A stretch of 64,000 nt of DNA from Chloroflexota bacterium (GTDB taxonomy: Bacteria; Chloroflexota; Limnocylindria; Limnocylindrales; CSP1-4): the NCBI GenBank assembly GCA_016781485.1, contig JADDQH010000004.1:629-64628 (forward strand), written 5' to 3'. Position numbers and translations under genes: made by a program. How positions within the stretch are numbered: position 1 is the first letter of the stretch; the number at the start of each line of letters is the position of its first letter. Shown here in pieces: positions 8 to 9,205 of the stretch. Below the pieces are notes generated by a model, which had not been told where the DNA came from, made no database searches, and saw only the letters and a program-made list of their open reading frames with translations.

Positions 8-1276
8 ATGCTCTACCTGAGCCAGGTGATCGGCAAGCCGGTGCGGGCGCGTGACGGCGAGCCGATCGGCAAGGTCGCGGACCTCATCGTCGCCATCGGC
101 GATCGCTACCCGCCGGTGACCGGACTCGTCGTCTCGACCGGCCGCCGCAAGATCTTCCTGCCCTGGTCGGACGTCGCCGCCTTCGACTCGACCGGCGCGA
201 CGCTCAAGACGCGGGTGCTCGACATCGGGAAGTTCACGCAGCGCCCGAACGAGCTCCTCCTGTTCGAGGACCTCCAGGACAAGCAGATCGTGGACCTTGA
301 CGGACGCAAGGTCGTGCGGGTGAACGACCTCCGCCTCGACGAGATCGAGGGGAGACTCCATCTGGTCGCGGTCGATGTCGGCGCGGGCGGCCTGCTCCGA
401 CGGCTGGGCATCGAGGGGCCGTTCCGGACGCTCGCGCGGAACCTGCGAGTGGCGGTCCCGGACCGGTACATCGACTGGGAGGACGTCGACCCGGTCGAGA
501 CGTCGATCGCGTCGATCCGCCTGCGCGTCCCCCACCAGGGCGTCCGTGAGCTCCACCCCGCCGACCTCGCCTCGATCATCGATCAGCTCGCGCCGCGCGA
601 CCGCGTCGGCATCATCGAGTCGCTCGACGACGAGGCCGCGGCGGATGCATTCGAGGAGATGGATCCCGAGACCCAGGTCGAGGTGCTCGAGGACCTCGAG
701 CCGGAGCGAGCGGCCGACATCCTCGAGGAGATGAGCCCCGACGACGCCGCCGATCTCGTGGCGGACCTGTCCGAGGAGGCACGGGCCGAGATCCTGCCGC
801 TCATGGAGCGCGAGGAGGCGGACGAGGTCCGCGAGCTGCTCGGCTACCCCGAGCAGTCGGCGGGCGGGATCATGACCACCGAGTACGTCTCGATCCCGGC
901 GAACCTGACGGCCGCCGAGACGATCGAGCGTCTGCGCGAGCTCGAGCCCGACGCCGAGACGATCTATTACGTCTACGTCGTCGACGAGGCCGGCCGCCTC
1001 GTGGGCGTCCTGTCGCTGCGGGACCTGATCGTCGCTCGTCCCGAACGGCCGGTGAGTGAATTCATGCAACCGGACCCCGTCGCCGTCGGCGTCCTCGCGC
1101 CGCAGGAGGAGGTAGCTCAGGTCGTCGCGCGCTACAACCTCCTCGCGGTCCCGGTCGTTGATGACGAGGGACGCCTGGAGGGGATCGTGACCGTCGACGA
1201 CGCGATCGACACCGTACTGCCGACGGCTTGGAAGCGACGCCTCCCCCGCGTCTTCAGCCGCAGCGCGTCCTCGTAG
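8..1276 (+). CDS. Soluble PRC-barrel + MgtE N-terminal (cytoplasmic) domain + tandem CBS protein; lacks the MgtE membrane domain
   Basis: 422-aa ORF. PRC-barrel-like repeats (VIGKPVRARDGEPIGKVADLIV; IVDLDGRKVVRVNDLRLD). Acidic helical MgtE_N-like block (DDEAAADAFEEMDPETQVEVLEDLEPERAADILEEMSPDDAADLVADLSEE). CBS pair (VVDEAGRLVGVLSLRDLI ... VPVVDDEGRLEGIVTVDDAID). No hydrophobic segment before the stop. The start is near the window edge, so the true start could lie upstream. Confidence 0.8.
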   Translation: MLYLSQVIGKPVRARDGEPIGKVADLIVAIGDRYPPVTGLVVSTGRRKIFLPWSDVAAFDSTGATLKTRVLDIGKFTQRPNELLLFEDLQDKQIVDLDGRKVVRVNDLRLDEIEGRLHLVAVDVGAGGLLRRLGIEGPFRTLARNLRVAVPDRYIDWEDVDPVETSIASIRLRVPHQGVRELHPADLASIIDQLAPRDRVGIIESLDDEAAADAFEEMDPETQVEVLEDLEPERAADILEEMSPDDAADLVADLSEEARAEILPLMEREEADEVRELLGYPEQSAGGIMTTEYVSIPANLTAAETIERLRELEPDAETIYYVYVVDEAGRLVGVLSLRDLIVARPERPVSEFMQPDPVAVGVLAPQEEVAQVVARYNLLAVPVVDDEGRLEGIVTVDDAIDTVLPTAWKRRLPRVFSRSASS

Positions 1277-1282
1277 TCCGCG

Positions 1283-2599
1283 ATGCCGGGGATCACGGCC
1301 CCCGTCTCACGCGCGGTCGGGCGTTTCACCGACCTCGCGCCCGATCTCCGGGGTCGCTTCCGGCGCCGAGGGGTGTTCGCGTTCCTGGCGGTCATGGGGC
1401 CCGGGCTCATCGCGGGGATCGCGGGCAACGACGCCGGTGGGATCGCGACGTACTCCGCCGTCGGGTCACGGACCGGGTTCGGGTTGCTGTGGTTGTTCCC
1501 CGTCACCATCGTCGTGCTCGCCGTGGTCCAGGAGATGGCGGCGCGGCTCGGAGTGGTCACCGGCCAGGGTCTCTCCGACCTCATCCGCGACCGATTCGGC
1601 GTCCGGTGGACCGCGTTCGCGATGCTCGTGCTGCTCGTCGCGAACCTCGCGAACACCGTGGCCGAGTTCGCCGGCGCAGCCGCCGCGCTGGAGATCTTCG
1701 CGGTCCCGCGGCTGATCACCGTGCCGATCGTCGCGGTCGCGATCTGGGCTCTGGTCCTGTTCGCCAGCTACCGCGCCGTGGAGCGGGTGTTCCTGTCGGT
1801 GATGGTCGTGTTCCTTGCGTACATCGCGTCGGCATTCCTTGCCCGCCCCGATTGGGCGCAGGTCGGGCAGGCACTCGTGACCCCGAACCTCGCGGTGGGC
1901 GCCGAGACACTGTTGCTCATGGTCGCGTTCGTCGGCACCACGATCACGCCCTACATGCAGTTCTACCTGCAGTCGGCGGTCGCCGAGAAGGGGATCGATG
2001 AGGAGGAGCTGAAGCTGGAGCAGGCGGACGCGATCGGGGGGGCCGTCTGGACGAACGTGATCGCGCTGTTCATCGTCGTCGCGACGGCCCAGACGCTGTT
2101 CCTGAACGGGATCCGCGTGGAGGACGCGGCGCAGGCGGCGGAGGCACTCGGCCCGGTCGCGGGGAACCTGGCGCGGGTCCTGTTCGCGGTGGGGCTCTTC
2201 GGCGCGAGCGTGCTCGCCGCGACCATCATGCCCATCAGCACGGCCTTCGTCATCTGCGAGGCGTTCGGCTGGGAGTCGGGCGTCGGCAAGCGCTTCGCCG
2301 ACGCGCCGGCGTTCTTTGCGCTCTACACGTTCGTCCTGTTCGTGGGTGCGCTCGTCGTGCTCATCCCCGGGCTCCCGCTGCTGCGCGTCATCCTCGTCAG
2401 CCAGAACCTCCAGGGGCTGCTGCTCCCGGTCGTGTTGCTATTCATGCTGAAGCTCGTGAACGACCGCCGACTGCTCGGGCGGCACGTGAACGGCGTCAAG
2501 CGGAACCTCCTCGCCGCCGTCGCCGTCGGGCTCGTCATCCTGCTCGACCTGATGCTCCTCGGCTCGGCGGCGCTCGAGGCGGTCGGCCTCAGGACGTGA
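1283..2599 (+). CDS. NRAMP-family cation transporter with non-canonical metal-site motifs (NRMT-like, possible Mg2+ transporter)
   Basis: 438-aa polytopic ORF starting 6 nt after the CBS protein stop. TM1 region GPGLIAGIAGNDAGGIATYS aligns to the canonical GPG..S.GY.DPGN..T, so DPGN reads DAGG. TM6 region VGTTITPYMQFYLQS aligns to the canonical GA..MPHN..LHS, so the Met and His are absent. Confidence 0.8.
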   Translation: MPGITAPVSRAVGRFTDLAPDLRGRFRRRGVFAFLAVMGPGLIAGIAGNDAGGIATYSAVGSRTGFGLLWLFPVTIVVLAVVQEMAARLGVVTGQGLSDLIRDRFGVRWTAFAMLVLLVANLANTVAEFAGAAAALEIFAVPRLITVPIVAVAIWALVLFASYRAVERVFLSVMVVFLAYIASAFLARPDWAQVGQALVTPNLAVGAETLLLMVAFVGTTITPYMQFYLQSAVAEKGIDEEELKLEQADAIGGAVWTNVIALFIVVATAQTLFLNGIRVEDAAQAAEALGPVAGNLARVLFAVGLFGASVLAATIMPISTAFVICEAFGWESGVGKRFADAPAFFALYTFVLFVGALVVLIPGLPLLRVILVSQNLQGLLLPVVLLFMLKLVNDRRLLGRHVNGVKRNLLAAVAVGLVILLDLMLLGSAALEAVGLRT

Positions 2600-4263
2600 C
2601 CGTGCCCGAGCGTCGCTCGATGCCCCGACGGCCTCGTCTCGCGCGTCCGCTTCCGCTCCACCCGATCCTCCTCGCGGCTTACCCGATCCTCTTCCTGTGG
2701 TCCCAGAACCTTGCCGAGGTCACGCTCGCCGACGCCCTGCCTCCGCTTGCCCAGGTGACGGCGGCAACGCTTGCGCTCCTGACCGTCCTTTGGCTCCTGC
2801 TCCGGAACGCGGCCCGTGCAGCCATCATCGCGTCCGCACTCGTCGTCGCGTTCCTCACGTTCGGCCACGCTCAACGCCTGCTGGCGCCGCTCCGGGTAGG
2901 ACATCCCGTCCAATTCGGCGGGTCGCTCCTCTTCGTCGCGATCGCGGTGCTGTTCGCGCTTCGGTCGACTCGTTCGCTCGCGCCCGCCACCTCCGGCCTG
3001 AACATCGTGGCTGGCGTGCTCGTCGCGGTGACGCTCGTGTCGATCGTCCCGCGAGAGCTGTCGAGAGCGGGATCGGAACGCGGTGTCGCAGCTCCGACGA
3101 CGAGCGACGCGGAGGCCGGGCCCGCGGCGCCGAGAGATATCTACTACCTCGTCTTCGACCGGTACGGATCCGAGTCGTCACTCCGCCTCCGGTACGGCGT
3201 CGACAACGACCTCCCCGAGTGGCTCGTGCAGCAAGGGTTCTTCGTGGCCGACCGCAGCCACGCGAACTACGCGCGAACACCCCTCTCGCTCGCGACCTCG
3301 CTGAACATGAGATACCTCGACGATCTGACGAGTCGGTACGGGCGCGAGACCAACGACCTGACGCCCGTGTACGGGATGATCAAGGACCATTCCGTCGGGC
3401 GCCTCCTGAAGTCCAGGGGCTACCGCTACGTCCACATCGGTTCCTGGTGGGAAGCCACCAGGACAAGCCCGATCGCGGACGTCAACCTGAACGTCGCCGG
3501 CGAGTCCGAGTTCTCGTCCGTGTTCTACGACTCGACGATGCTGCCCTACCTGTTCGGACAGGCTGGCAAGAAGCGACCGACGCGACGCGAGGCGCACCGA
3601 GCCAGCGCGCTGTACCAGTTCGAACAGCTCGACAAGCTCGTTTCGATGCCCGGTCCGAAATTCGTGTTCGGACACGTGCTGCTCCCGCATCCGCCACTCG
3701 TGTTCCACGCCGACGGCTCGCCGATCACGCCGGCGGAACTCCGGAAGACGCCTGCTGAGGAGCTGTACAGGGAGCAGCTTGCGTTCACGAACGCGCGGAT
3801 CCGCCGACTCGTCGAGTCGCTTCTCAGCGGCCCGGAGGCTTCCAGGCCGATCGTGATCCTTCAAGCGGACGAAGGACCGTACCTCGAGGATCGCAAGCCG
3901 TCACAGGAGGACGCGTATCGGATCCGCTACGGGATCCTGAACGCCTTCTATCTTCCCGACCTCCAAGGCGCCGGCCCGTATCCGACGATCACTCCGGTCA
4001 ACGCCTTCCGGCTGTTGCTCAGTCGCTACTTCGGTGCCCACCTCCCGCTGCTGCCGGACCGCAGCTTCAGCTGGCCGACCGTATTCGCGCCGCATCCGAA
4101 GTACGACCAGCGCATATACGACTTCACGGAGATCACGCATCTGCTCGTGACGCCCTCGGGATCGATGCCGCAGTCGGCCTCGACGGTCCCGGCGAACAGG
4201 GTCAGGCCGAGGTCTTCTCCAAGGGGTAACCCGCAGCGTGCCAGGCGGGCACACCGCCGCTGA
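2596..4263 (+). CDS. Polytopic membrane protein with extracytoplasmic alkaline-phosphatase/sulfatase-fold domain (LtaS/EptA/OpgB-like), paralog A
   Basis: 555-aa ORF. The GTG start overlaps the transporter stop (GTGA). Hydrophobic N-terminal ~170 aa. Soluble domain motifs: DIYYLVFDRYGSESS, ANYARTPLSLATSLN, HVLLPHPP, LQADEGPY. Homologous along its full length to 12872-14578 and 14908-16524. Confidence 0.65.
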   Translation: MTVPERRSMPRRPRLARPLPLHPILLAAYPILFLWSQNLAEVTLADALPPLAQVTAATLALLTVLWLLLRNAARAAIIASALVVAFLTFGHAQRLLAPLRVGHPVQFGGSLLFVAIAVLFALRSTRSLAPATSGLNIVAGVLVAVTLVSIVPRELSRAGSERGVAAPTTSDAEAGPAAPRDIYYLVFDRYGSESSLRLRYGVDNDLPEWLVQQGFFVADRSHANYARTPLSLATSLNMRYLDDLTSRYGRETNDLTPVYGMIKDHSVGRLLKSRGYRYVHIGSWWEATRTSPIADVNLNVAGESEFSSVFYDSTMLPYLFGQAGKKRPTRREAHRASALYQFEQLDKLVSMPGPKFVFGHVLLPHPPLVFHADGSPITPAELRKTPAEELYREQLAFTNARIRRLVESLLSGPEASRPIVILQADEGPYLEDRKPSQEDAYRIRYGILNAFYLPDLQGAGPYPTITPVNAFRLLLSRYFGAHLPLLPDRSFSWPTVFAPHPKYDQRIYDFTEITHLLVTPSGSMPQSASTVPANRVRPRSSPRGNPQRARRAHRR

Positions 4264-5626
4264 CCCAGGTCACGCGCTCGAACCCGGCGTCGCGCAGAAG
4301 GCTGGCGGCAACGGAACTGCGATAGCCGGCGGCACAGATCGTCAGGATGGGTCGGTCGCGTGGCAGCTCTGCGAGACGATCGGGCACGTCGCCCGCCATC
4401 AGGTGCACCGCGCCGGGGACATGTCCGCGCTCGTACTCGTCACGCTGCCGCACGTCGAGCACGAGCGGCGAGCGGTCTCCGGTGCGGGCGCCGCCGCCGA
4501 GAGGGCCATCGGCGGCGAGCACGTCGCGCAGCTCGCTCACGGTCAGCCGGTCCGTCGTCTCGATCGGTGCACCGAGCGAGTGCCAGGCCGCGAACCCTCC
4601 GTGCAGGTATCCCTCGACGTTGTCGTACCCGATCCGGAGCGCCTGCCGCACGGCGTCGTCCCAGTCAGCGGGGGAGTCGAGCACGAAGATGAGTGGTCGG
4701 TCGGGTGGAACGACCCACCCGAGCCACGTCCCGAACGAGGTGCCCGCAGGGAGCGACACGGAACCTGGGATATGAGCGATCGCGTGCTCGGCCGGCGAGC
4801 GGAGATCGATCACGAGATGGTCGGCGGCGGCGAGCTCACGAACACGGGCGACCTGGAGCGGTCGCGGGACCGGCAGGCGGCCGACCGGCGCCGGCCCGGC
4901 CTGGTTGATGGACCGCATCCGGCTGAAGTAGCGCGGGTAGGAAGGCTGATGGGCGAGGAGCACCCGGGCGAACTCCTCGGCGTCCTCGATCGCAAGCAGA
5001 GGATTGTGTCGCCGCTCGTAGCCGAGGGTGCTGCTCGGCGTCGAGGAGATGGAGCTGGAGCAGAGCGATCCGCCGCCGTGTGTCGGCAGGATGCCTACGA
5101 AGTCCTGGTGGCGCAGGATCCGGTCGTGGAGTGACGCGAACAGCTGCCGAGCGTACGGGACCGCATTCGAGTCGCCAAGGAGGTCCGTCCGGCCGACCGC
5201 GCCGACGAGCAGGGAGCCGCCGGTGAACATCAGCAGCGGCTCGGCGGCACGTGCCACGTCCGAGACCGCGTAGCAGACGTGCTCCGGGGTGTGACCAGGT
5301 GTCTCGAGGACCTGGAGGCGCAGTGAGCCGACGTCGACGGCGTCCCCGTCGCGTACGCCCCGGAAGTCGTACGCCAGCTGTGCGCCCGCGCCGATCAGCT
5401 GCTCGGCGCCGGTCACCTCCGCGAGCTCTCGCGCTCCGGAGACGTAGTCGTTGTGGAGATGCGTCTCCACGACGTGCGTGATGCGCAGATCCAGGCGGCG
5501 AGCCTCGTCGAGGTAGACGTCGATGTCTCTGCGCGGGTCGACGACCGCGGCCGTCCCGGCCGCATCGTCACCGATGAGGGCGCTCAGGTGTCCAAGGCCC
5601 TGGATCGGGAACTGGCGCAGGTGCAT
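4202..5626 (-). CDS. MBL-fold metallo-hydrolase fused to two rhodanese domains (persulfide dioxygenase/sulfurtransferase-like)
   Basis: Real start taken at MHLRQFPIQGLG (ATG at 5626). The 854-aa track ORF extends upstream only as low-complexity sequence. MBL motif THLHNDY plus ETPGHTPEH. C-terminal rhodanese with active-site loop CAAGYRS. The middle rhodanese lacks Cys. Confidence 0.8.
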   Translation of the reverse strand: MHLRQFPIQGLGHLSALIGDDAAGTAAVVDPRRDIDVYLDEARRLDLRITHVVETHLHNDYVSGARELAEVTGAEQLIGAGAQLAYDFRGVRDGDAVDVGSLRLQVLETPGHTPEHVCYAVSDVARAAEPLLMFTGGSLLVGAVGRTDLLGDSNAVPYARQLFASLHDRILRHQDFVGILPTHGGGSLCSSSISSTPSSTLGYERRHNPLLAIEDAEEFARVLLAHQPSYPRYFSRMRSINQAGPAPVGRLPVPRPLQVARVRELAAADHLVIDLRSPAEHAIAHIPGSVSLPAGTSFGTWLGWVVPPDRPLIFVLDSPADWDDAVRQALRIGYDNVEGYLHGGFAAWHSLGAPIETTDRLTVSELRDVLAADGPLGGGARTGDRSPLVLDVRQRDEYERGHVPGAVHLMAGDVPDRLAELPRDRPILTICAAGYRSSVAASLLRDAGFERVTWVSGGVPAWHAAGYPLEKTSA

Positions 5627-5701: not shown

Positions 5702-7054
5702 ATGTTCAAATGGCGACAACGCGTCGCCGAGCCGACGCGAGCGAGAGGGAGGCGAGTGGCCGGAAAGCGCGTGGCCCGAGCGGCACGAGCGGTCGAAACA
5801 CCTGCAGCACCGCGCGTACACGTCCCGGTGACCGACGCGGCCGGAAAGCCGTGGCGGAAGGACCGCGGGACGGACGGCGGTCGTCGCGAGCCAACGACCC
5901 CTCGGCGGGCGCTGGCCAGGGTCGGCGTGACGCTGCGTTCGTGGTTTCCCGTCGAGGTCCTGGCCACGTTCGTCGCCACTCGGGCGATCCTGACGCTCGT
6001 CGGCTTCCTGTCCATCACGGCGGTCGCTCCCAACCCGTACCGATTCGACTGGGACGCATCCGACCACCCGCTCGTCAACGCATGGTCCCGCTGGGATTCG
6101 TACTGGTACGTACGGATCGCCGACGACGGGTACGGCTACATCCCCGGGAAGGAGTCGAGTGTCGCGTTCTTCCCGCTGTACCCGATGCTCATCAGGCTGG
6201 CCGGGTGGTTCGTGGGCGCCAGCGGACCGGAGATGCTCGCCATCCTGGGGATCGTCATCTCCAACCTCGCGCTGCTCGCAGCGGTCGCCGCCGTCATCCT
6301 CCTCGTACGCCTCGACTTCGATGAGGCCACCGCACGCAGGACCGCCTCGTACCTCCTGCTCTTCCCATCGAGCTTCTTCCTCTCTGCCGTCTACCCGGAG
6401 TCGCTGTTCCTCGCGCTCGCGGTCGCTTCGCTCTACTTCGCGCGGACCGACCGGTGGGTGGTCGCGGCGCTGCTCGCGACCGCCGCAACGCTGACCCGCC
6501 CATACGGGCTGTTCCTCGCCGTGGCGCTCGTCTTCGAGTACGCCGCGCAGCGTGGGTTCCGGCTGCGCGCCGTGCGCCCCGATGTGCTCGCCCTCGGCCT
6601 CATCCCGTCCGCCCTCGCGGCGTACTTCCTCTACCTGGGCGCCTCGTTCGGCGACCCGCTCGCGGCGCTCCACGCACAGAAGGCGTGGGGACGAGAACTC
6701 ACGGTGCCGTGGGACGCGTTCACCACATTCTTCAGCGCACCCTTCAGCAAGCACGGAGGGAAGCACTCTCCGTTCGATCTCGGCTTCACGCTCGTGTCGC
6801 TGGTCCTCGTGGCGCTTTCCTGGCGCTTCGTACGACCGAGCTACGCCTTGTTCGCGACCGTGCTACTGCTGGGTGTGCTTTCCACGGGCACGCTGTGGTC
6901 GATGGTCCGGTTCGCCGTGAGTCCCTTCCCGGCGTTCATCGTGCTGGCGATCGCCGGACGGCACCCGCTGTTCGACCGCGCCTACGTCGTCGTCTCGGTC
7001 GGCCTCGGGGCGCTGTTCATGGGCATGTACGCGCAGTGGTACTGGGTCGGCTGA
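5702..7054 (+). CDS. PIG-V-like (GPI mannosyltransferase 2-like) GT-C family polytopic glycosyltransferase, paralog A
   Basis: Motifs NAWSRWDSYWYVRIADDGYGY, SVAFFPLYP, LLFPSSFFLSAVYPESLFLAL, TLTRPYG; multiple TM segments. Homologous to 9487-10689 and 26740-27963. The start is uncertain (ATG 5702; alternative GTG at 5927). Confidence 0.65.
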   Translation: MFKWRQRVAEPTRARGRRVAGKRVARAARAVETPAAPRVHVPVTDAAGKPWRKDRGTDGGRREPTTPRRALARVGVTLRSWFPVEVLATFVATRAILTLVGFLSITAVAPNPYRFDWDASDHPLVNAWSRWDSYWYVRIADDGYGYIPGKESSVAFFPLYPMLIRLAGWFVGASGPEMLAILGIVISNLALLAAVAAVILLVRLDFDEATARRTASYLLLFPSSFFLSAVYPESLFLALAVASLYFARTDRWVVAALLATAATLTRPYGLFLAVALVFEYAAQRGFRLRAVRPDVLALGLIPSALAAYFLYLGASFGDPLAALHAQKAWGRELTVPWDAFTTFFSAPFSKHGGKHSPFDLGFTLVSLVLVALSWRFVRPSYALFATVLLLGVLSTGTLWSMVRFAVSPFPAFIVLAIAGRHPLFDRAYVVVSVGLGALFMGMYAQWYWVG

Positions 7055-7057
7055 ACG

Positions 7058-9205
7058 TCAGCTCGCTGGCTGCGGCGCCGTTCCCCACCCTGCAGGCTGC
7101 TCTTCGTGCTCGATCTCGAGATCTCGATCCGCGAGCCGTCGGAAGCGCGTCGCGAACAGGTAGGCGAGTGCGTACAGGCCCGCGACCACGAGCAGCAAGG
7201 CGCTGTATCCGGTGAGCAGCGCCAGGTACTCGAGCACCCCGCCGAACATGGCGCCCAGGAGATTGCTCGCGAAGGCCATGTCGGCGGTGCGGGTGTCGCG
7301 GAAGGAGTAGCTGAACACGAGGTTGGCGAAGAACACCGGGGCGAACGCGACGGCCGCCGCGAGCACGTATCGGAGCGCCGGCGGGTCGATGAGGAGCGAC
7401 TCGGGCGGCAGGAAGAAGGCGAGCGCGATGGACGCGAACAATCCGGCGTAGAAGAACGTGGGACGCCGGACGGGGAACCGCGCGTTGACGAAGATCGCCA
7501 GCAGCACGCTCGCAAGGATGGCGAAGAAGGCGAATGCGTTGACGATCCAGGTGGTGCCGAACAGCAGGCTGAAGGAGACGAGGCTGCGCGTCTCGAGCAG
7601 CAGGAACGCGACACCGAGGACGAAGAAGTGGGGGCTGAAGCGGCGGAGGCTGGTGCCGGTGACGCGCGCCGCCCCGGCCACCGCAGCGACCGCCGCGACC
7701 AGCACGAATGCCAGCGCGATCAGGTAGTAGTCCGCGATGAAGGGGGTGCGCAGGTACAGGAACGGCCAGTCGTCGGTGGCCGGCTTGGGAGTCGGCGCGG
7801 TGACGGCCGGCACCGGGTCGACCGTGTCACCCGGCGGCGGACCGCCGTTCAGCGCGGCGACGGCCGGGCCGGCCGCGAGCGCGGCCTTGACGTGGCTCCA
7901 CGTGCGCAGCAGTGGCTGGTGGCCGAAGGTGTCCTTCAGCATGTCGGAGAGCTTGGCCACGAGCCAAGGCTCTCGGTAGTAGTTGTAGAGGATGAAGACG
8001 CCGTCGGAGTCGAGGTGGTCGCGGACGCTTGCGAACGCCTGCTCGGTGAACAGGAACGACTCCAGGCGGATGTTCGCGGCTGTGCTCACCAGCGTGAGCG
8101 AGTCGGGCAGCGCGAAGATGACCAGGTCGTACTTCTTGTCCGTGTTCCGCAGGAACGCACGCCCGTCGTTGTTGATGCGGGTGACGCGGGGGTCGCTGTA
8201 CGGCCGGTTCGGATGGCGCTCGAGGCCGAGTTGCTGGATCTTGGGGTCGATCTCCACGGCGTCGATGTGTCGGGCGCCGCGAGCGACCGCGATCGCGGAG
8301 TCGGTGCCGCTTCCGGCGCCGACGATCAGGACGTTGTCGTACGTCCGGCCGGGGAACCAGCGATAGATCTGCTCGTAGAACTCTTCCTTTCCGCGGTCAT
8401 TGACCGGCCACATCCCCTGGTGCGGGATCCCGTTCACGTTGATGCCGGTCTTGCCCGAGTAGTCCGTGTAGGCCGTGATCCGGTAGTACGGCGACCACGT
8501 GTCGGTGGGGCGCGCCCCCAGCGTGGTGACGACGAGCACCGCGAGCATGGCGCCGATCCCCACGAGCGACATCGGCTTGACGCCGGCGCCGAGGATCAGC
8601 AGCGCGAGGAGCACGGCGGCGACCGCGAACCACAGGATCGGGCTCGTGCCGCCGGCCGACAGCACGGTGAAGCCGGCGATCCCTGCCATCGAGCCGCCGA
8701 TGTCGATGGCGTAGGCGCGGAGCGGGGGCATGCTCCGAAGGAGCGGGCCGAGTGGCAGGGCGAGCGCGGCCATCAGTGCGCCGACGAGCGCGATGACGAG
8801 CGGCAGCACGAGGAAATTGACGTCGGCACTCTTGCTCTCGGCGAGACCGAAGAACAGCTCGTTCTGGCTGTTGACCTGGACGTTGAGCCGCGCCTGGTGG
8901 ACGAGCAGGACGACGCCGAGGAGCAGCAGCGCGAACGGGGAGACGACGAGGTCCTGGCGCTTCCGCCCGAGCAGGATCCCGAGCCCGATCCCGAGGAAGC
9001 TCGCCATCAGCAGGAAGTTGCTGAAGAAGCTCACGTACGTGACGTTCGCCGGGATCCACCGGATGAGCAGAAGCTCGACGAAGAGGACCGTGGCGCTGGT
9101 CAGGAACAGTCGCACCCCATTGCCGGCGAGGAACGGGATCGGCGGGATCAGCGACGCGTCTGCTCTCCTGGCGGCCGGCGCCGCGGCGCTCGCCTCAGCG
9201 TTCAA
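7058..9205 (-). CDS. Spermidine-synthase-fold (class I SAM/dcSAM-binding) enzyme flanked by N- and C-terminal polytopic membrane modules
   Basis: 715-aa ORF. Central motif VLIVGAGSGTDSAIAVARGARHIDAVEIDPKI ... DLVIFALPDS. About 7 TM segments before and about 6 after. The two membrane modules share related motifs (IDIGGSMAGIAGF vs SNLLGAMFGGVLEY). Confidence 0.65.
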   Translation of the reverse strand: MNAEASAAAPAARRADASLIPPIPFLAGNGVRLFLTSATVLFVELLLIRWIPANVTYVSFFSNFLLMASFLGIGLGILLGRKRQDLVVSPFALLLLGVVLLVHQARLNVQVNSQNELFFGLAESKSADVNFLVLPLVIALVGALMAALALPLGPLLRSMPPLRAYAIDIGGSMAGIAGFTVLSAGGTSPILWFAVAAVLLALLILGAGVKPMSLVGIGAMLAVLVVTTLGARPTDTWSPYYRITAYTDYSGKTGINVNGIPHQGMWPVNDRGKEEFYEQIYRWFPGRTYDNVLIVGAGSGTDSAIAVARGARHIDAVEIDPKIQQLGLERHPNRPYSDPRVTRINNDGRAFLRNTDKKYDLVIFALPDSLTLVSTAANIRLESFLFTEQAFASVRDHLDSDGVFILYNYYREPWLVAKLSDMLKDTFGHQPLLRTWSHVKAALAAGPAVAALNGGPPPGDTVDPVPAVTAPTPKPATDDWPFLYLRTPFIADYYLIALAFVLVAAVAAVAGAARVTGTSLRRFSPHFFVLGVAFLLLETRSLVSFSLLFGTTWIVNAFAFFAILASVLLAIFVNARFPVRRPTFFYAGLFASIALAFFLPPESLLIDPPALRYVLAAAVAFAPVFFANLVFSYSFRDTRTADMAFASNLLGAMFGGVLEYLALLTGYSALLLVVAGLYALAYLFATRFRRLADRDLEIEHEEQPAGWGTAPQPAS

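What the first reader, a model, noticed from the sequence alone, without database searches (positions are those of the whole stretch)
8..2599. Stand-alone MgtE-type cytoplasmic sensor next to an NRAMP-related transporter lacking the transition-metal site
Seen in sequence: the first gene has the whole cytoplasmic part of MgtE (N domain plus CBS pair, preceded by PRC barrels) but no membrane domain. It ends 6 nt before an NRAMP-family gene. In that transporter the TM1 motif DPGN reads DAGG (GIAGNDAGGIATY). The TM6 motif A-x-x-M-P-H reads T-T-I-T-P-Y (VGTTITPYMQFY).

Established knowledge: the TM6 methionine is what lets canonical NRAMPs prefer Mn/Fe over Mg/Ca. NRAMP-related clades lacking it (the NRMTs of Clostridium acetobutylicum and Eggerthella lenta) transport Mg2+. 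The MgtE N/CBS module is a cytoplasmic Mg2+ sensor that gates the MgtE pore.

Inference: this pair may be a split system in which an MgtE-type Mg2+ sensor regulates a non-MgtE (NRMT-type) permease. I am not aware of a description of that arrangement.
Basis: partly seen in the sequence, partly recalled or inferred. Interest (0 to 1): 0.6.

Follow-up and report, generated by a model that had tools for sequence, protein, structure and literature searches.

The report
Magnesium transporter with detached MgtE sensor
This is a two-gene operon for an NRAMP-related magnesium-type transporter and a soluble protein built from the magnesium-sensing half of the MgtE channel. The pairing was published in 2014 and is very widespread, so the locus is ordinary, but what the partner protein does has still not been tested.

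Summary
Window 8-1276 (+) encodes a 422-aa soluble protein with two PRC barrels, an MgtE_N domain and a CBS pair, and no membrane domain. Six nucleotides later, 1283-2599 (+) encodes a 438-aa NRAMP-family protein. Its nearest solved relative by far is the Mg2+ transporter EleNRMT, and it keeps all four EleNRMT metal-site residues (D50, G53, T219, Q374).

The reading as an MgtE-type sensor paired with an NRMT permease is reasonable, but it is not new. Shin et al. 2014 (PLoS Genet, PMC4072509) described this gene pairing and proposed the same feedback-regulation idea. Earlier notes of this scan record the pairing in at least 279 other genomes.

- **Spread:** a complete PRC-MgtE_N-CBS gene is adjacent in 61 of 72 informative NRMT loci, from more than 20 phyla including archaea.
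- **Mg2+ ligands:** those of MgtE sites Mg4, Mg6 and Mg7 are conserved. The acidic plug helix (Mg2/Mg3) is replaced by a basic tail.
- **Other pores:** the assembled genome (87.6% complete) shows no MgtE pore domain.
- **Complex proxy:** an AlphaFold2 model of the native in-frame read-through chain gives pTM 0.78, which hints at a physical complex. This had no control and no interface read-out.

Verdict: a new member of a known kind, of low interest. The partner's mechanism remains open.

The parts
8..1276 (+). Gene for a soluble PRC-PRC-MgtE_N-CBS-CBS protein (422 aa, stop TAG 1274-1276): the 'MgtE-like fragment' partner of NRMT
   Evidence: ORF. Pfam hits to MgtE_N, CBS and PRC, all above cut-off. 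Matches 2yvy at E 1.7e-50. AF2 model has pLDDT 87.7. Foldseek TM-score (normalised to the target) 0.88 to the MgtE cytosolic domain. Start supported by a conserved RBS and ATG.
8..205 (+). PRC barrel 1 (aa 1-66)
   Evidence: Pfam PRC best stretch at aa 2-57. AF2 gives beta strands 11-66 with pLDDT about 90.
239..448 (+). PRC barrel 2 plus two helices (aa 78-147). This is the most invariant part of the protein: D91, Q93, D96, R104, N106, D107, D123, R131, R132.
   Evidence: Second PRC stretch. AF2 strands 82-123 and helices 126-146. Invariant columns in the alignment of 59 orthologues.
536..847 (+). MgtE_N superhelical domain (aa 177-280). D213, D245 and D249 correspond to TtMgtE E59 (Mg7), D91 (Mg4) and D95 (Mg6).
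   Evidence: Pfam. Alignment to 2yvy. Site mapping and conservation of 52/59, 48/59 and 57/59, with site definitions from PMC5882242.
860..1216 (+). CBS pair (aa 285-403). D398 corresponds to TtMgtE D247 (Mg4), N377 to D226 and D401 to D250 (Mg5). The ATP-site residues Y321 and R338 are kept, but F227 is L378 here.
   Evidence: ATP-site residues from PMC5529423.
1217..1273 (+). Short basic C-terminal tail LPTAWKRRLPRVFSRSASS. It takes the place of MgtE's acidic plug helix (Mg2/Mg3 ligands E258 and D259).
   Evidence: The tail motif LPxAW(K/R)n recurs in many orthologues. Low pLDDT after residue 411.
1277..1282 (+). 6-nt spacer. The two genes are in the same reading frame and no Shine-Dalgarno sequence is evident, which is consistent with translational coupling.
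   Evidence: Sequence. Read-through translation gives one 863-aa chain.
1283..2599 (+). Gene for an NRMT-clade NRAMP-related transporter (438 aa). Metal-site residues are D50 and G53 (TM1, 'NDAGG'), T219 and T222 (TM6, 'GTTITPY') and Q374 (TM10).
   Evidence: Pfam Nramp E 1.2e-91. EleNRMT 7qia E 3.8e-112 with alignment. Roles of EleNRMT D55, G58, T224 and Q379 from PMC8806188. Tree.

Best explanation
The locus is an ordinary member of the published 'mgtE-like fragment - nrmT' operon family.

**Transporter.** The downstream gene encodes an NRAMP-related, EleNRMT-type carrier. It most likely imports Mg2+, and probably also Mn2+, without proton coupling.

**Partner.** The upstream gene encodes a soluble protein derived from the cytoplasmic gating module of the MgtE channel, with two PRC barrels in front.

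**Most likely mechanism (inferred, not shown).**
1. The two proteins are made together from one transcript by coupled translation.
2. The soluble protein docks on the cytoplasmic face of the carrier. The invariant PRC barrel 2 and/or the basic C-terminal tail may mediate this.
3. The protein binds cytoplasmic Mg2+ at the acidic sites between its N and CBS domains (equivalents of MgtE sites Mg4, Mg6 and Mg7).
4. In the Mg2+-bound, compact state it restrains transport. This gives the carrier in trans the same negative feedback that MgtE has in cis.

The direction of regulation (inhibition at high Mg2+ or activation at low Mg2+) is not known.
For: **Shown here.**
- Domain make-up and NRMT identity.
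- All four functionally tested EleNRMT site residues are kept.
- A complete PRC-MgtE_N-CBS gene is adjacent in 61 of 72 NRMT loci with enough flank. In 58 it lies upstream on the same strand, and the loci come from more than 20 phyla including two archaea.
- In the Chloroflexota sample, 77 of the 82 adjacent pairs have the partner gene upstream on the same strand. Gaps between the aligned matches run from -8 to 284 nt.
- At genome level, 113 of 116 genomes with a strong NRMT hit have a partner-like hit (E <= 1e-55), against 28 of 185 genomes without one.
- Both genes are under purifying selection, with rough dN/dS of 0.22-0.32.
- Ligands of MgtE sites Mg4, Mg6 and Mg7 are conserved across 59 orthologues.
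- The assembled genome shows no MgtE pore domain and no other MgtE_N or Nramp gene, so the partner has no MgtE channel to act on there.
- M-box Mg2+ riboswitches lie directly upstream of the partner gene in 2 of 16 related loci. One of these (L009) has the same DAGG.TTY.Q site signature as the window.
- AF2 on the native in-frame read-through chain, with 35 naturally same-frame orthologue pairs, gives pTM 0.78 although 53 linker residues are disordered. The partner alone gives 0.67.

**From the literature.** Shin et al. 2014 published the pairing and the same hypothesis.
Against: - No experiment shows binding or regulation.
- Shin et al. 2014 saw no change in Mg2+ rescue when the A. capsulatum partner was co-expressed, and that transporter behaved mainly as a Mn2+ importer.
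- CabNrmT and EleNRMT work without the partner.
- At least 20 partner genes in Chloroflexota lie more than 3 kb from any NRAMP gene, so linkage is not obligatory.
- The Mg5 ligand D226 is Asn in most orthologues, and sites Mg2/Mg3 are lost.
- The adenine-stacking Phe of the MgtE ATP site is Leu.
- The AF2 result has no PAE, no coordinates and no negative control. A covalent linker can bias the model towards compactness.
- There is no riboswitch and no transcript evidence for this window.
Confidence: 0.5

Rival explanations
1. The soluble MgtE-like protein is a general cytoplasmic Mg2+ (or Mn2+/nucleotide) sensor. It acts on other targets, such as the two CorA channels or other proteins. It sits next to nrmT only because both belong to the same Mg2+-homeostasis regulon.
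For: - Twenty orthologues in Chloroflexota lie away from any NRAMP gene, next to unrelated genes (YceD, MarR and others). They still keep every invariant residue and the basic tail.
- The genome has two CorA genes.
- Co-expression had no effect on NrmT in Shin et al. 2014.
Against: - Co-occurrence with NRMT at genome level is very tight, 113 of 116.
- Upstream, same-strand adjacency holds in more than 20 phyla.
- pTM is 0.78 for the joined chain.
Confidence: 0.2
2. The partner is a metal chaperone or buffer that hands Mg2+/Mn2+ on from the transporter's inner mouth, rather than a gate. This is Shin et al.'s alternative.
For: - Many conserved acidic metal ligands.
- Proposed in PMC4072509.
- The A. 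capsulatum pair is associated with Mn2+ transport.
Against: - Mg2+ is at millimolar levels in the cytoplasm and needs no chaperone.
- The conserved sites are those that drive the N/CBS clamp movement in MgtE (PMC5882242), which points to a conformational switch.
Confidence: 0.1
3. The partner is an obligatory positive subunit that is needed for stability, membrane targeting or activation of NRMT at low Mg2+. It is not a brake.
For: - Coupled translation and near-universal co-occurrence.
- EleNRMT needed thermostabilising mutations for structural work: the paper names the construct EleNRMT^ts^.
Against: CabNrmT, EleNRMT and Acp2977 all transport without it.
Confidence: 0.15
4. The gene is a decaying remnant of a full-length PRC-MgtE channel gene that once preceded nrmT, and it has no function of its own.
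For: Two loci (L059, L079) still have a PRC-MgtE_N-CBS protein with five membrane helices upstream of nrmT.
Against: - dN/dS is 0.25-0.32.
- There are 10 invariant and 24 near-invariant columns across phyla.
- The frame is intact in 61 loci.
- The AF2 model is confident.
Confidence: 0.02

Closest known systems
'MgtE-like fragment' - nrmT operons (Shin et al. 2014, PLoS Genet 10:e1004429, PMC4072509), e.g. A. capsulatum Acp2976/Acp2977 and C. acetobutylicum Ca_c0685
   Same: - An NRAMP-outgroup/NRMT transporter sits immediately downstream of a gene for the MgtE cytoplasmic domain.
- The hypothesis of feedback regulation is the same.
   Different: - There is no M-box riboswitch here.
- The paper does not mention the PRC barrels: 'PRC' and 'barrel' each occur 0 times in it. 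Here they are the most conserved part.
- The host is an uncultured Chloroflexota lineage (Ca. Limnocylindrales, by the names of its closest homologues).
EleNRMT, the Eggerthella lenta NRAMP-related Mg2+ transporter (PDB 7QIA/7QIC/7QJI/7QJJ; Ramanadane et al. 2022, PMC8806188)
   Same: - E 3.8e-112 over 400 residues.
- D55, G58, T224 and Q379 are all conserved as D50, G53, T219 and Q374.
   Different: - The position of the canonical Met is Thr (T222) here, against Ala227 in EleNRMT.
- The residue after the Pro is Tyr, not Trp.
- Transport has not been measured.
MgtE Mg2+ channel of Thermus thermophilus (PDB 2YVX/2YVY/2ZY9/5X9H)
   Same: - N domain plus CBS pair: 44% identity, Foldseek TM-score (normalised to the target) 0.88, rmsd 2.0 A.
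- Ligands of sites Mg4, Mg6 and Mg7 are conserved.
   Different: - No plug helix, no five-helix pore, and no Mg1-Mg3 sites.
- Two PRC barrels are added at the N terminus.
- There is a basic instead of an acidic C terminus.
- The ATP-pocket Phe227 is Leu.
Membrane-anchored PRC-MgtE_N-CBS partners of NRMT, seen here in L059 (Eubacteriales) and L079 (Coriobacteriia) and noted by earlier agents of this scan in Collinsella
   Same: Same domain order and the same position upstream of nrmT.
   Different: - Those carry about 200 further residues with five hydrophobic helices and an acidic post-CBS segment.
- The window's protein is fully soluble with a basic tail.

Membership tests
NRMT (NRAMP-related Mg2+ transporters) within Pfam PF01566 | Nramp/LeuT-type fold domain | tested here: met
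   PF01566 E 1.2e-91, covering profile positions 1-356 of 357.
NRMT (NRAMP-related Mg2+ transporters) within Pfam PF01566 | TM1 site D-x-x-G (Gly in place of the canonical Asn of DPGN) | tested here: met
   N-D50-A-G-G53 aligns with EleNRMT N-D55-A-G-G58.
NRMT (NRAMP-related Mg2+ transporters) within Pfam PF01566 | TM6 has Thr in place of the canonical Ala (EleNRMT T224, needed for Mg2+) and no Met or His | tested here: met
   G-T219-T-I-T222-P-Y224 aligns with G-T224-T-I-A227-P-W229. Role of T224 from PMC8806188.
NRMT (NRAMP-related Mg2+ transporters) within Pfam PF01566 | Conserved Gln on helix 10 (EleNRMT Q379) | tested here: met
   Q374 is nearly invariant in the NRMT alignment.
NRMT (NRAMP-related Mg2+ transporters) within Pfam PF01566 | Phylogenetic placement with NRMTs, outside MntH/Slc11 | tested here: met
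   379 bits to EleNRMT against at most 114 bits to any canonical NRAMP structure. Inside the DAGG clade, which is split 100/100 from the 'DPxG' outgroup clade. No canonical MntH sequences were in that tree.
NRMT (NRAMP-related Mg2+ transporters) within Pfam PF01566 | Proton-independent transport of Mg2+ (and Mn2+), not Ca2+ | not testable with these tools
   Needs a proteoliposome or complementation assay.
MgtE Mg2+ channel (TIGR00400) | MgtE_N domain plus CBS pair | tested here: met
MgtE Mg2+ channel (TIGR00400) | C-terminal five-helix pore domain (PF01769) with the Mg1 Asp | tested here: not met
   The protein ends 19 aa after CBS2. TIGR00400 scores 210.8 bits, below the 232.75 cut-off, and only profile positions 27-252 of 450 match. 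There is no PF01769 hit. It is therefore not an MgtE channel.
MgtE Mg2+ channel (TIGR00400) | Cytoplasmic Mg2+ ligands (Mg2-Mg7; PMC5882242) | tested here: inconclusive
   Mg4, Mg6 and Mg7 ligands are kept. Mg5 is half kept (D226 is N). Mg2 and Mg3 are absent together with the plug helix.
'MgtE-like fragment'-nrmT operon (Shin et al. 2014) | Gene for the MgtE cytoplasmic domain immediately adjacent to, and co-oriented with, an NrmT-clade gene | tested here: met
   6-nt spacer on the same strand. The same arrangement occurs in 58 other loci.
'MgtE-like fragment'-nrmT operon (Shin et al. 2014) | M-box Mg2+ riboswitch in the leader (reported for many members, not all) | tested here: not met
   No Rfam match at E <= 1 in contig positions 1-3628, and the leader is only 108 nt long. 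An M-box is present in relatives L016 and L009.
PRC-barrel domain (PF05239) | Small beta-barrel matching the PRC profile | tested here: met
   51.9 bits against a cut-off of 21.2, in two stretches. Two barrels in the AF2 model with pLDDT about 90.

The most novel reading that the evidence does not exclude
The PRC-MgtE_N-CBS protein is a detachable gating subunit. On this reading, the Mg2+-sensing clamp of a channel (MgtE) has been recruited to control an unrelated LeuT-fold carrier (NRMT) in trans. It would dock through its invariant PRC barrel 2 and basic tail onto the carrier's cytoplasmic face, perhaps at the NRMT-specific TM8-9 loop 'CEAFGWE'. The idea dates from 2014 but has never been demonstrated. 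The new element would be the docking role of the PRC barrels, which are not mentioned in that paper, and a predicted compact complex (pTM 0.78 for the native read-through chain).
Probability: 0.45. Interest if true: 0.5.

Novelty: new member of a known kind. Interest (0 to 1): 0.2.

Why it matters
The pairing itself teaches nothing new. It does mark a question open since 2014: how a carrier with no cytoplasmic domain of its own is kept from overloading the cell with Mg2+ or Mn2+.

If the soluble MgtE-like protein is shown to gate NRMT, it would be a clear case of a sensor module moving between unrelated transporter folds. It would also explain why this protein is among the most widespread 'CBS domain-containing' orphans in soil and sediment bacteria.

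For this window there is a practical consequence. The gene annotated as 'magnesium transporter' or 'CBS domain protein' is not a transporter. The NRAMP gene next to it should not be annotated as MntH.

Tried and rejected
1. **M-box or other RNA leader.** None was found at E <= 1.
2. **Partner regulating a full-length MgtE.** No PF01769 domain is found in the assembled genome. The genome is only 87.6% complete, so this is a weak rejection.
3. **Third gene as part of the system.** Gene 2596-4263 overlaps the NRMT stop (GTGA) but has no homologue in any of the 80 related loci.
4. **ATP sensing as in TtMgtE.** The pocket is only half conserved: F227 is Leu and N203 is variable. This was left open and not adopted.
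5. **Promoter and terminator scans.** Nothing above the shuffle expectation.
7. **Interface read-out from the AF2 fusion model.** The tool returns no PAE or coordinates, so only pTM could be used.
8. **Remnant or pseudogene reading.** Rejected on conservation and dN/dS.
Full report
**1. What is there**

The window begins 628 nt into contig C49 of a 2.83-Mb, 133-contig genome that is 87.6% complete. The names attached to the closest homologues point to Chloroflexota, 'Candidatus Limnocylindrales'.

Two co-oriented ORFs fill positions 8-2599.

Gene 1 (8-1276, 422 aa):
- It hits Pfam MgtE_N (E 1.9e-29), CBS (E 1e-22, two stretches) and PRC (E 7.8e-14, two stretches).
- It matches only the cytoplasmic half of the NCBIfam MgtE model, profile positions 27-252 of 450, and scores below the cut-off.
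- Its best solved relative is the T. thermophilus MgtE cytosolic domain (2yvy, E 1.7e-50).
- The frame is open at the window edge, but the contig's upstream sequence shows a divergent gene ending 108 nt away and a GAGG 6 nt before the ATG at window position 8. Five relatives share that ATG and the CGAGG motif, so the start is sound.

Gene 2 (1283-2599, 438 aa) is a full-length Nramp-family protein (E 1.2e-91).

Gene 1 ends in TAG and is followed by 6 nt and then the ATG of gene 2, in the same reading frame. No Shine-Dalgarno sequence is evident in the spacer. This fits termination-reinitiation coupling, which is an inference.

**2. The transporter is an NRMT**

Against all PDB chains, the protein matches EleNRMT at E 3.8e-112 (379 bits). 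Every canonical NRAMP or MntH structure scores at most 114 bits.

The quoted motifs align column for column with EleNRMT. N-D50-A-G-G53 aligns with N-D55-A-G-G58. G-T219-T-I-T222-P-Y aligns with G-T224-T-I-A227-P-W.

Ramanadane et al. 2022 (PMC8806188) showed the following:
- D55 and Q379 are essential for transport.
- T224 is needed specifically for Mg2+.
- G58N, combined with T224A, moves the site towards NRAMP-like behaviour.

All four positions are kept here as D50, G53, T219 and Q374.

In a maximum-likelihood tree of 66 representatives, the protein sits inside the 'DAGG' clade. That clade is split with 100/100 support from the 'DPxG' outgroup clade.

The substrate remains an inference. 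Mg2+ is most likely and Mn2+ is possible, because Shin et al. found that an A. capsulatum clade member mainly rescued a Mn2+ defect. One supporting point is that locus L009 (Bacillota) has exactly the same site signature (DAGG.TTY.Q) and an M-box Mg2+ riboswitch in front of its operon.

**3. The partner protein**

An AlphaFold2 model built from 59 orthologues has pLDDT 87.7 and pTM 0.67. It shows:
- two PRC beta-barrels (aa 1-66 and 82-123, plus helices to 146);
- a disordered linker (165-175);
- the MgtE_N superhelix (177-278);
- a CBS pair (285-403);
- a short tail.

Foldseek puts the MgtE cytosolic domain first: 2yvy (Mg2+-bound form), E 4e-23, TM-score (normalised to the target) 0.88, rmsd 2.0 A.

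I mapped the Mg2+ sites defined for TtMgtE (Maruyama et al. 2018, PMC5882242) onto the 59 orthologues:

| MgtE site | TtMgtE ligand | Window residue | Conservation in 59 orthologues |
|---|---|---|---|
| Mg4 | D91 | D245 | D in 48 |
| Mg4 | D247 | D398 | D in 51 |
| Mg6 | D95 | D249 | D in 57 |
| Mg7 | E59 | D213 | E or D in 52 |
| Mg5 | D226 | N377 | N in 36, D in only 4 |
| Mg5 | D250 | D401 | E or D in 43 |
| Mg2/Mg3 | E258, D259 (plug helix) | absent | replaced by a basic tail |

The protein ends in the basic tail LPTAWKRRLPRVFSRSASS. An LPxAW(K/R)n tail recurs widely among the orthologues.

The ATP pocket of TtMgtE (Tomita et al. 2017, PMC5529423) is only partly kept. Y170 and R187 are conserved (51 and 49 of 59). 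The adenine-stacking F227 is Leu in 42 of 59, and N203 is variable.

The most invariant stretch of the whole protein is PRC barrel 2 (D91, Q93, D96, R104, N106, D107, D123, R131, R132). I read this as the likeliest interaction surface, which is an inference.

**4. Is the pairing more than chance?**

Yes. A pattern scan of one genome per species returned 598 NRMT relatives, and the best 80 loci were kept. Of those 80:
- 72 have at least 1.4 kb of upstream sequence;
- 61 of the 72 carry a complete PRC-MgtE_N-CBS gene next to nrmT, 58 of them upstream on the same strand;
- two more have it split by frameshifts.

The 61 come from more than 20 phyla, including Nanobdellota and Methanobacteriota.

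In a sample of 301 Chloroflexota genomes:
- 81 of the 134 strongest listed NRMT places have a listed partner hit within 500 nt. Of all 82 adjacent pairs, 77 have the partner upstream on the same strand. The lists were truncated, so these are lower bounds.
- At genome level, 113 of 116 genomes with a strong NRMT hit also have a partner-like hit, against 28 of 185 without. Related genomes are not independent, so the p-value overstates the case.

Rough dN/dS against three relatives is 0.25-0.32 for the partner and 0.22-0.29 for NRMT.

Linkage is not absolute. Twenty Chloroflexota partner genes that I fetched have no NRAMP gene within 3 kb and sit beside unrelated genes. They still keep every invariant residue and the basic tail.

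**5. It is already known**

Shin et al. [quoted passage not shown] They also reported that co-expressing Acp2976 with Acp2977 in a B. subtilis Mg2+-transport mutant did not improve rescue.

Later NRMT papers that I searched do not discuss the partner. In Ramanadane 2022, 'MgtE' appears only as the unrelated channel. In Cellier 2022 it does not appear at all.

The 2014 paper does not mention PRC barrels. The scan's own notebook holds 282 earlier notes of the same pairing in at least 279 genomes, all pointing to the same paper. So the scan has found this before on other DNA.

The biology it proposed is the standing hypothesis, still untested.

**6. How it most likely works**

The assembled genome has no MgtE pore domain, no second MgtE_N and no second Nramp gene. 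It does have two CorA genes. Within the limits of 87.6% completeness, the partner has no MgtE channel to regulate.

As a proxy for a complex prediction, I used the fact that the two genes are in frame:
1. Reading the single TAG as Gly gives one 863-aa chain from the window's own DNA.
2. Thirty-four orthologous loci happen to have both genes in the same frame, so the same reading gave a naturally paired alignment.
3. AlphaFold2 returned pLDDT 85.0 and pTM 0.78, with residues 410-462 disordered.

If two roughly 400-residue modules joined by a 53-residue disordered linker were not confidently placed relative to each other, pTM should be near 0.45-0.5. A value of 0.78 implies one compact assembly.

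This is only suggestive, for these reasons:
- The read-through is artificial, and I make no claim that it occurs.
- The tool gives no PAE or coordinates.
- A covalent link favours compactness.

Taken together, I favour a trans-acting Mg2+ clamp that docks on NRMT and gives it negative feedback (confidence about 0.5). The rivals are a sensor with other targets (0.2), an activating or stabilising subunit (0.15), a chaperone or buffer (0.1) and a functionless remnant (0.02).

**7. Regulation at this locus**

There is no M-box or any other Rfam family at E <= 1 in contig positions 1-3628. The leader is 108 nt long and shared with a divergent gene. Two of 16 related loci do carry an M-box directly upstream of the partner gene. 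The promoter and terminator scans were uninformative.

**8. Verdict**

This is a new member of a known kind, of low interest (0.2). The part worth carrying forward is the still-open mechanism, together with the PRC-barrel and basic-tail features and the compact AF2 model. These make it directly testable.

Noticed in passing
window 2596-4263 (+): A 555-aa protein with four N-terminal hydrophobic segments and a weak sulfatase-like domain (Pfam E 1.6e-5, just below cut-off). Its GTG start overlaps the NRMT stop (GTGA). It has no homologue in any of the 80 related NRMT loci, so it is probably a lineage-specific addition to the transcript and not part of the system.
   Followed up: partly
L086-L105 (20 Chloroflexota genomes): These are 'orphan' PRC-MgtE_N-CBS genes with no NRAMP gene within 3 kb, next to YceD-like, MarR-like or unannotated genes. 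They keep all invariant residues and the basic tail LPTAWKKRLPRxF. So the partner and nrmT can be unlinked within a genome.
   Followed up: partly
L059:2185-4032 (Eubacteriales) and L079:2160-3962 (Coriobacteriia): Here the partner upstream of nrmT carries about 200 extra C-terminal residues with five hydrophobic helices and an acidic post-CBS segment. It also differs at otherwise invariant PRC2 positions (D91N, D123E, R132G). It looks like a membrane-anchored, MgtE-like intermediate form. Earlier scan notes describe the same in Collinsella.
   Followed up: partly
L032:5199-5813 (Actinomycetota) and L062:4629-5225 (Ca. Geothermincola): In these two loci nrmT has no MgtE-like gene upstream. It is followed instead by a gene of about 200 aa with only a weak PRC-barrel match.
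   Followed up: no
L016:2566-2734 and L009:2135-2297: M-box Mg2+ riboswitches (127 and 108 bits) lie directly upstream of the partner gene in a Dormiibacterota locus and a Bacillota locus. None was found in the window or in its close Chloroflexota relatives.
   Followed up: yes
window 4205-5626 (-): A protein with a metallo-beta-lactamase fold followed by two rhodanese domains (Pfam Rhodanese E 8e-31). The listed 854-aa ORF is an over-extension typical of high-GC DNA.
   Followed up: no
window 5927-7051 (+) and 7061-9205 (-): A PIG-V-like mannosyltransferase membrane protein, and a 715-aa polytopic protein with a central spermidine-synthase-like domain. Both are unrelated to the finding.
   Followed up: no
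own genome, whole (G000): No MgtE pore domain (PF01769) was found in the 87.6%-complete assembly, and no canonical MntH. Two CorA genes are present (C46:1820-2725 and C83:44717-45571).
   Followed up: yes
L002-L005, about 130-160 nt upstream of the partner gene's start: The close relatives share a motif, GTGGACACCGGACCCAGTAC, in their leaders. It is not evident in the window's shorter leader. It may be an operator or promoter element.
   Followed up: no
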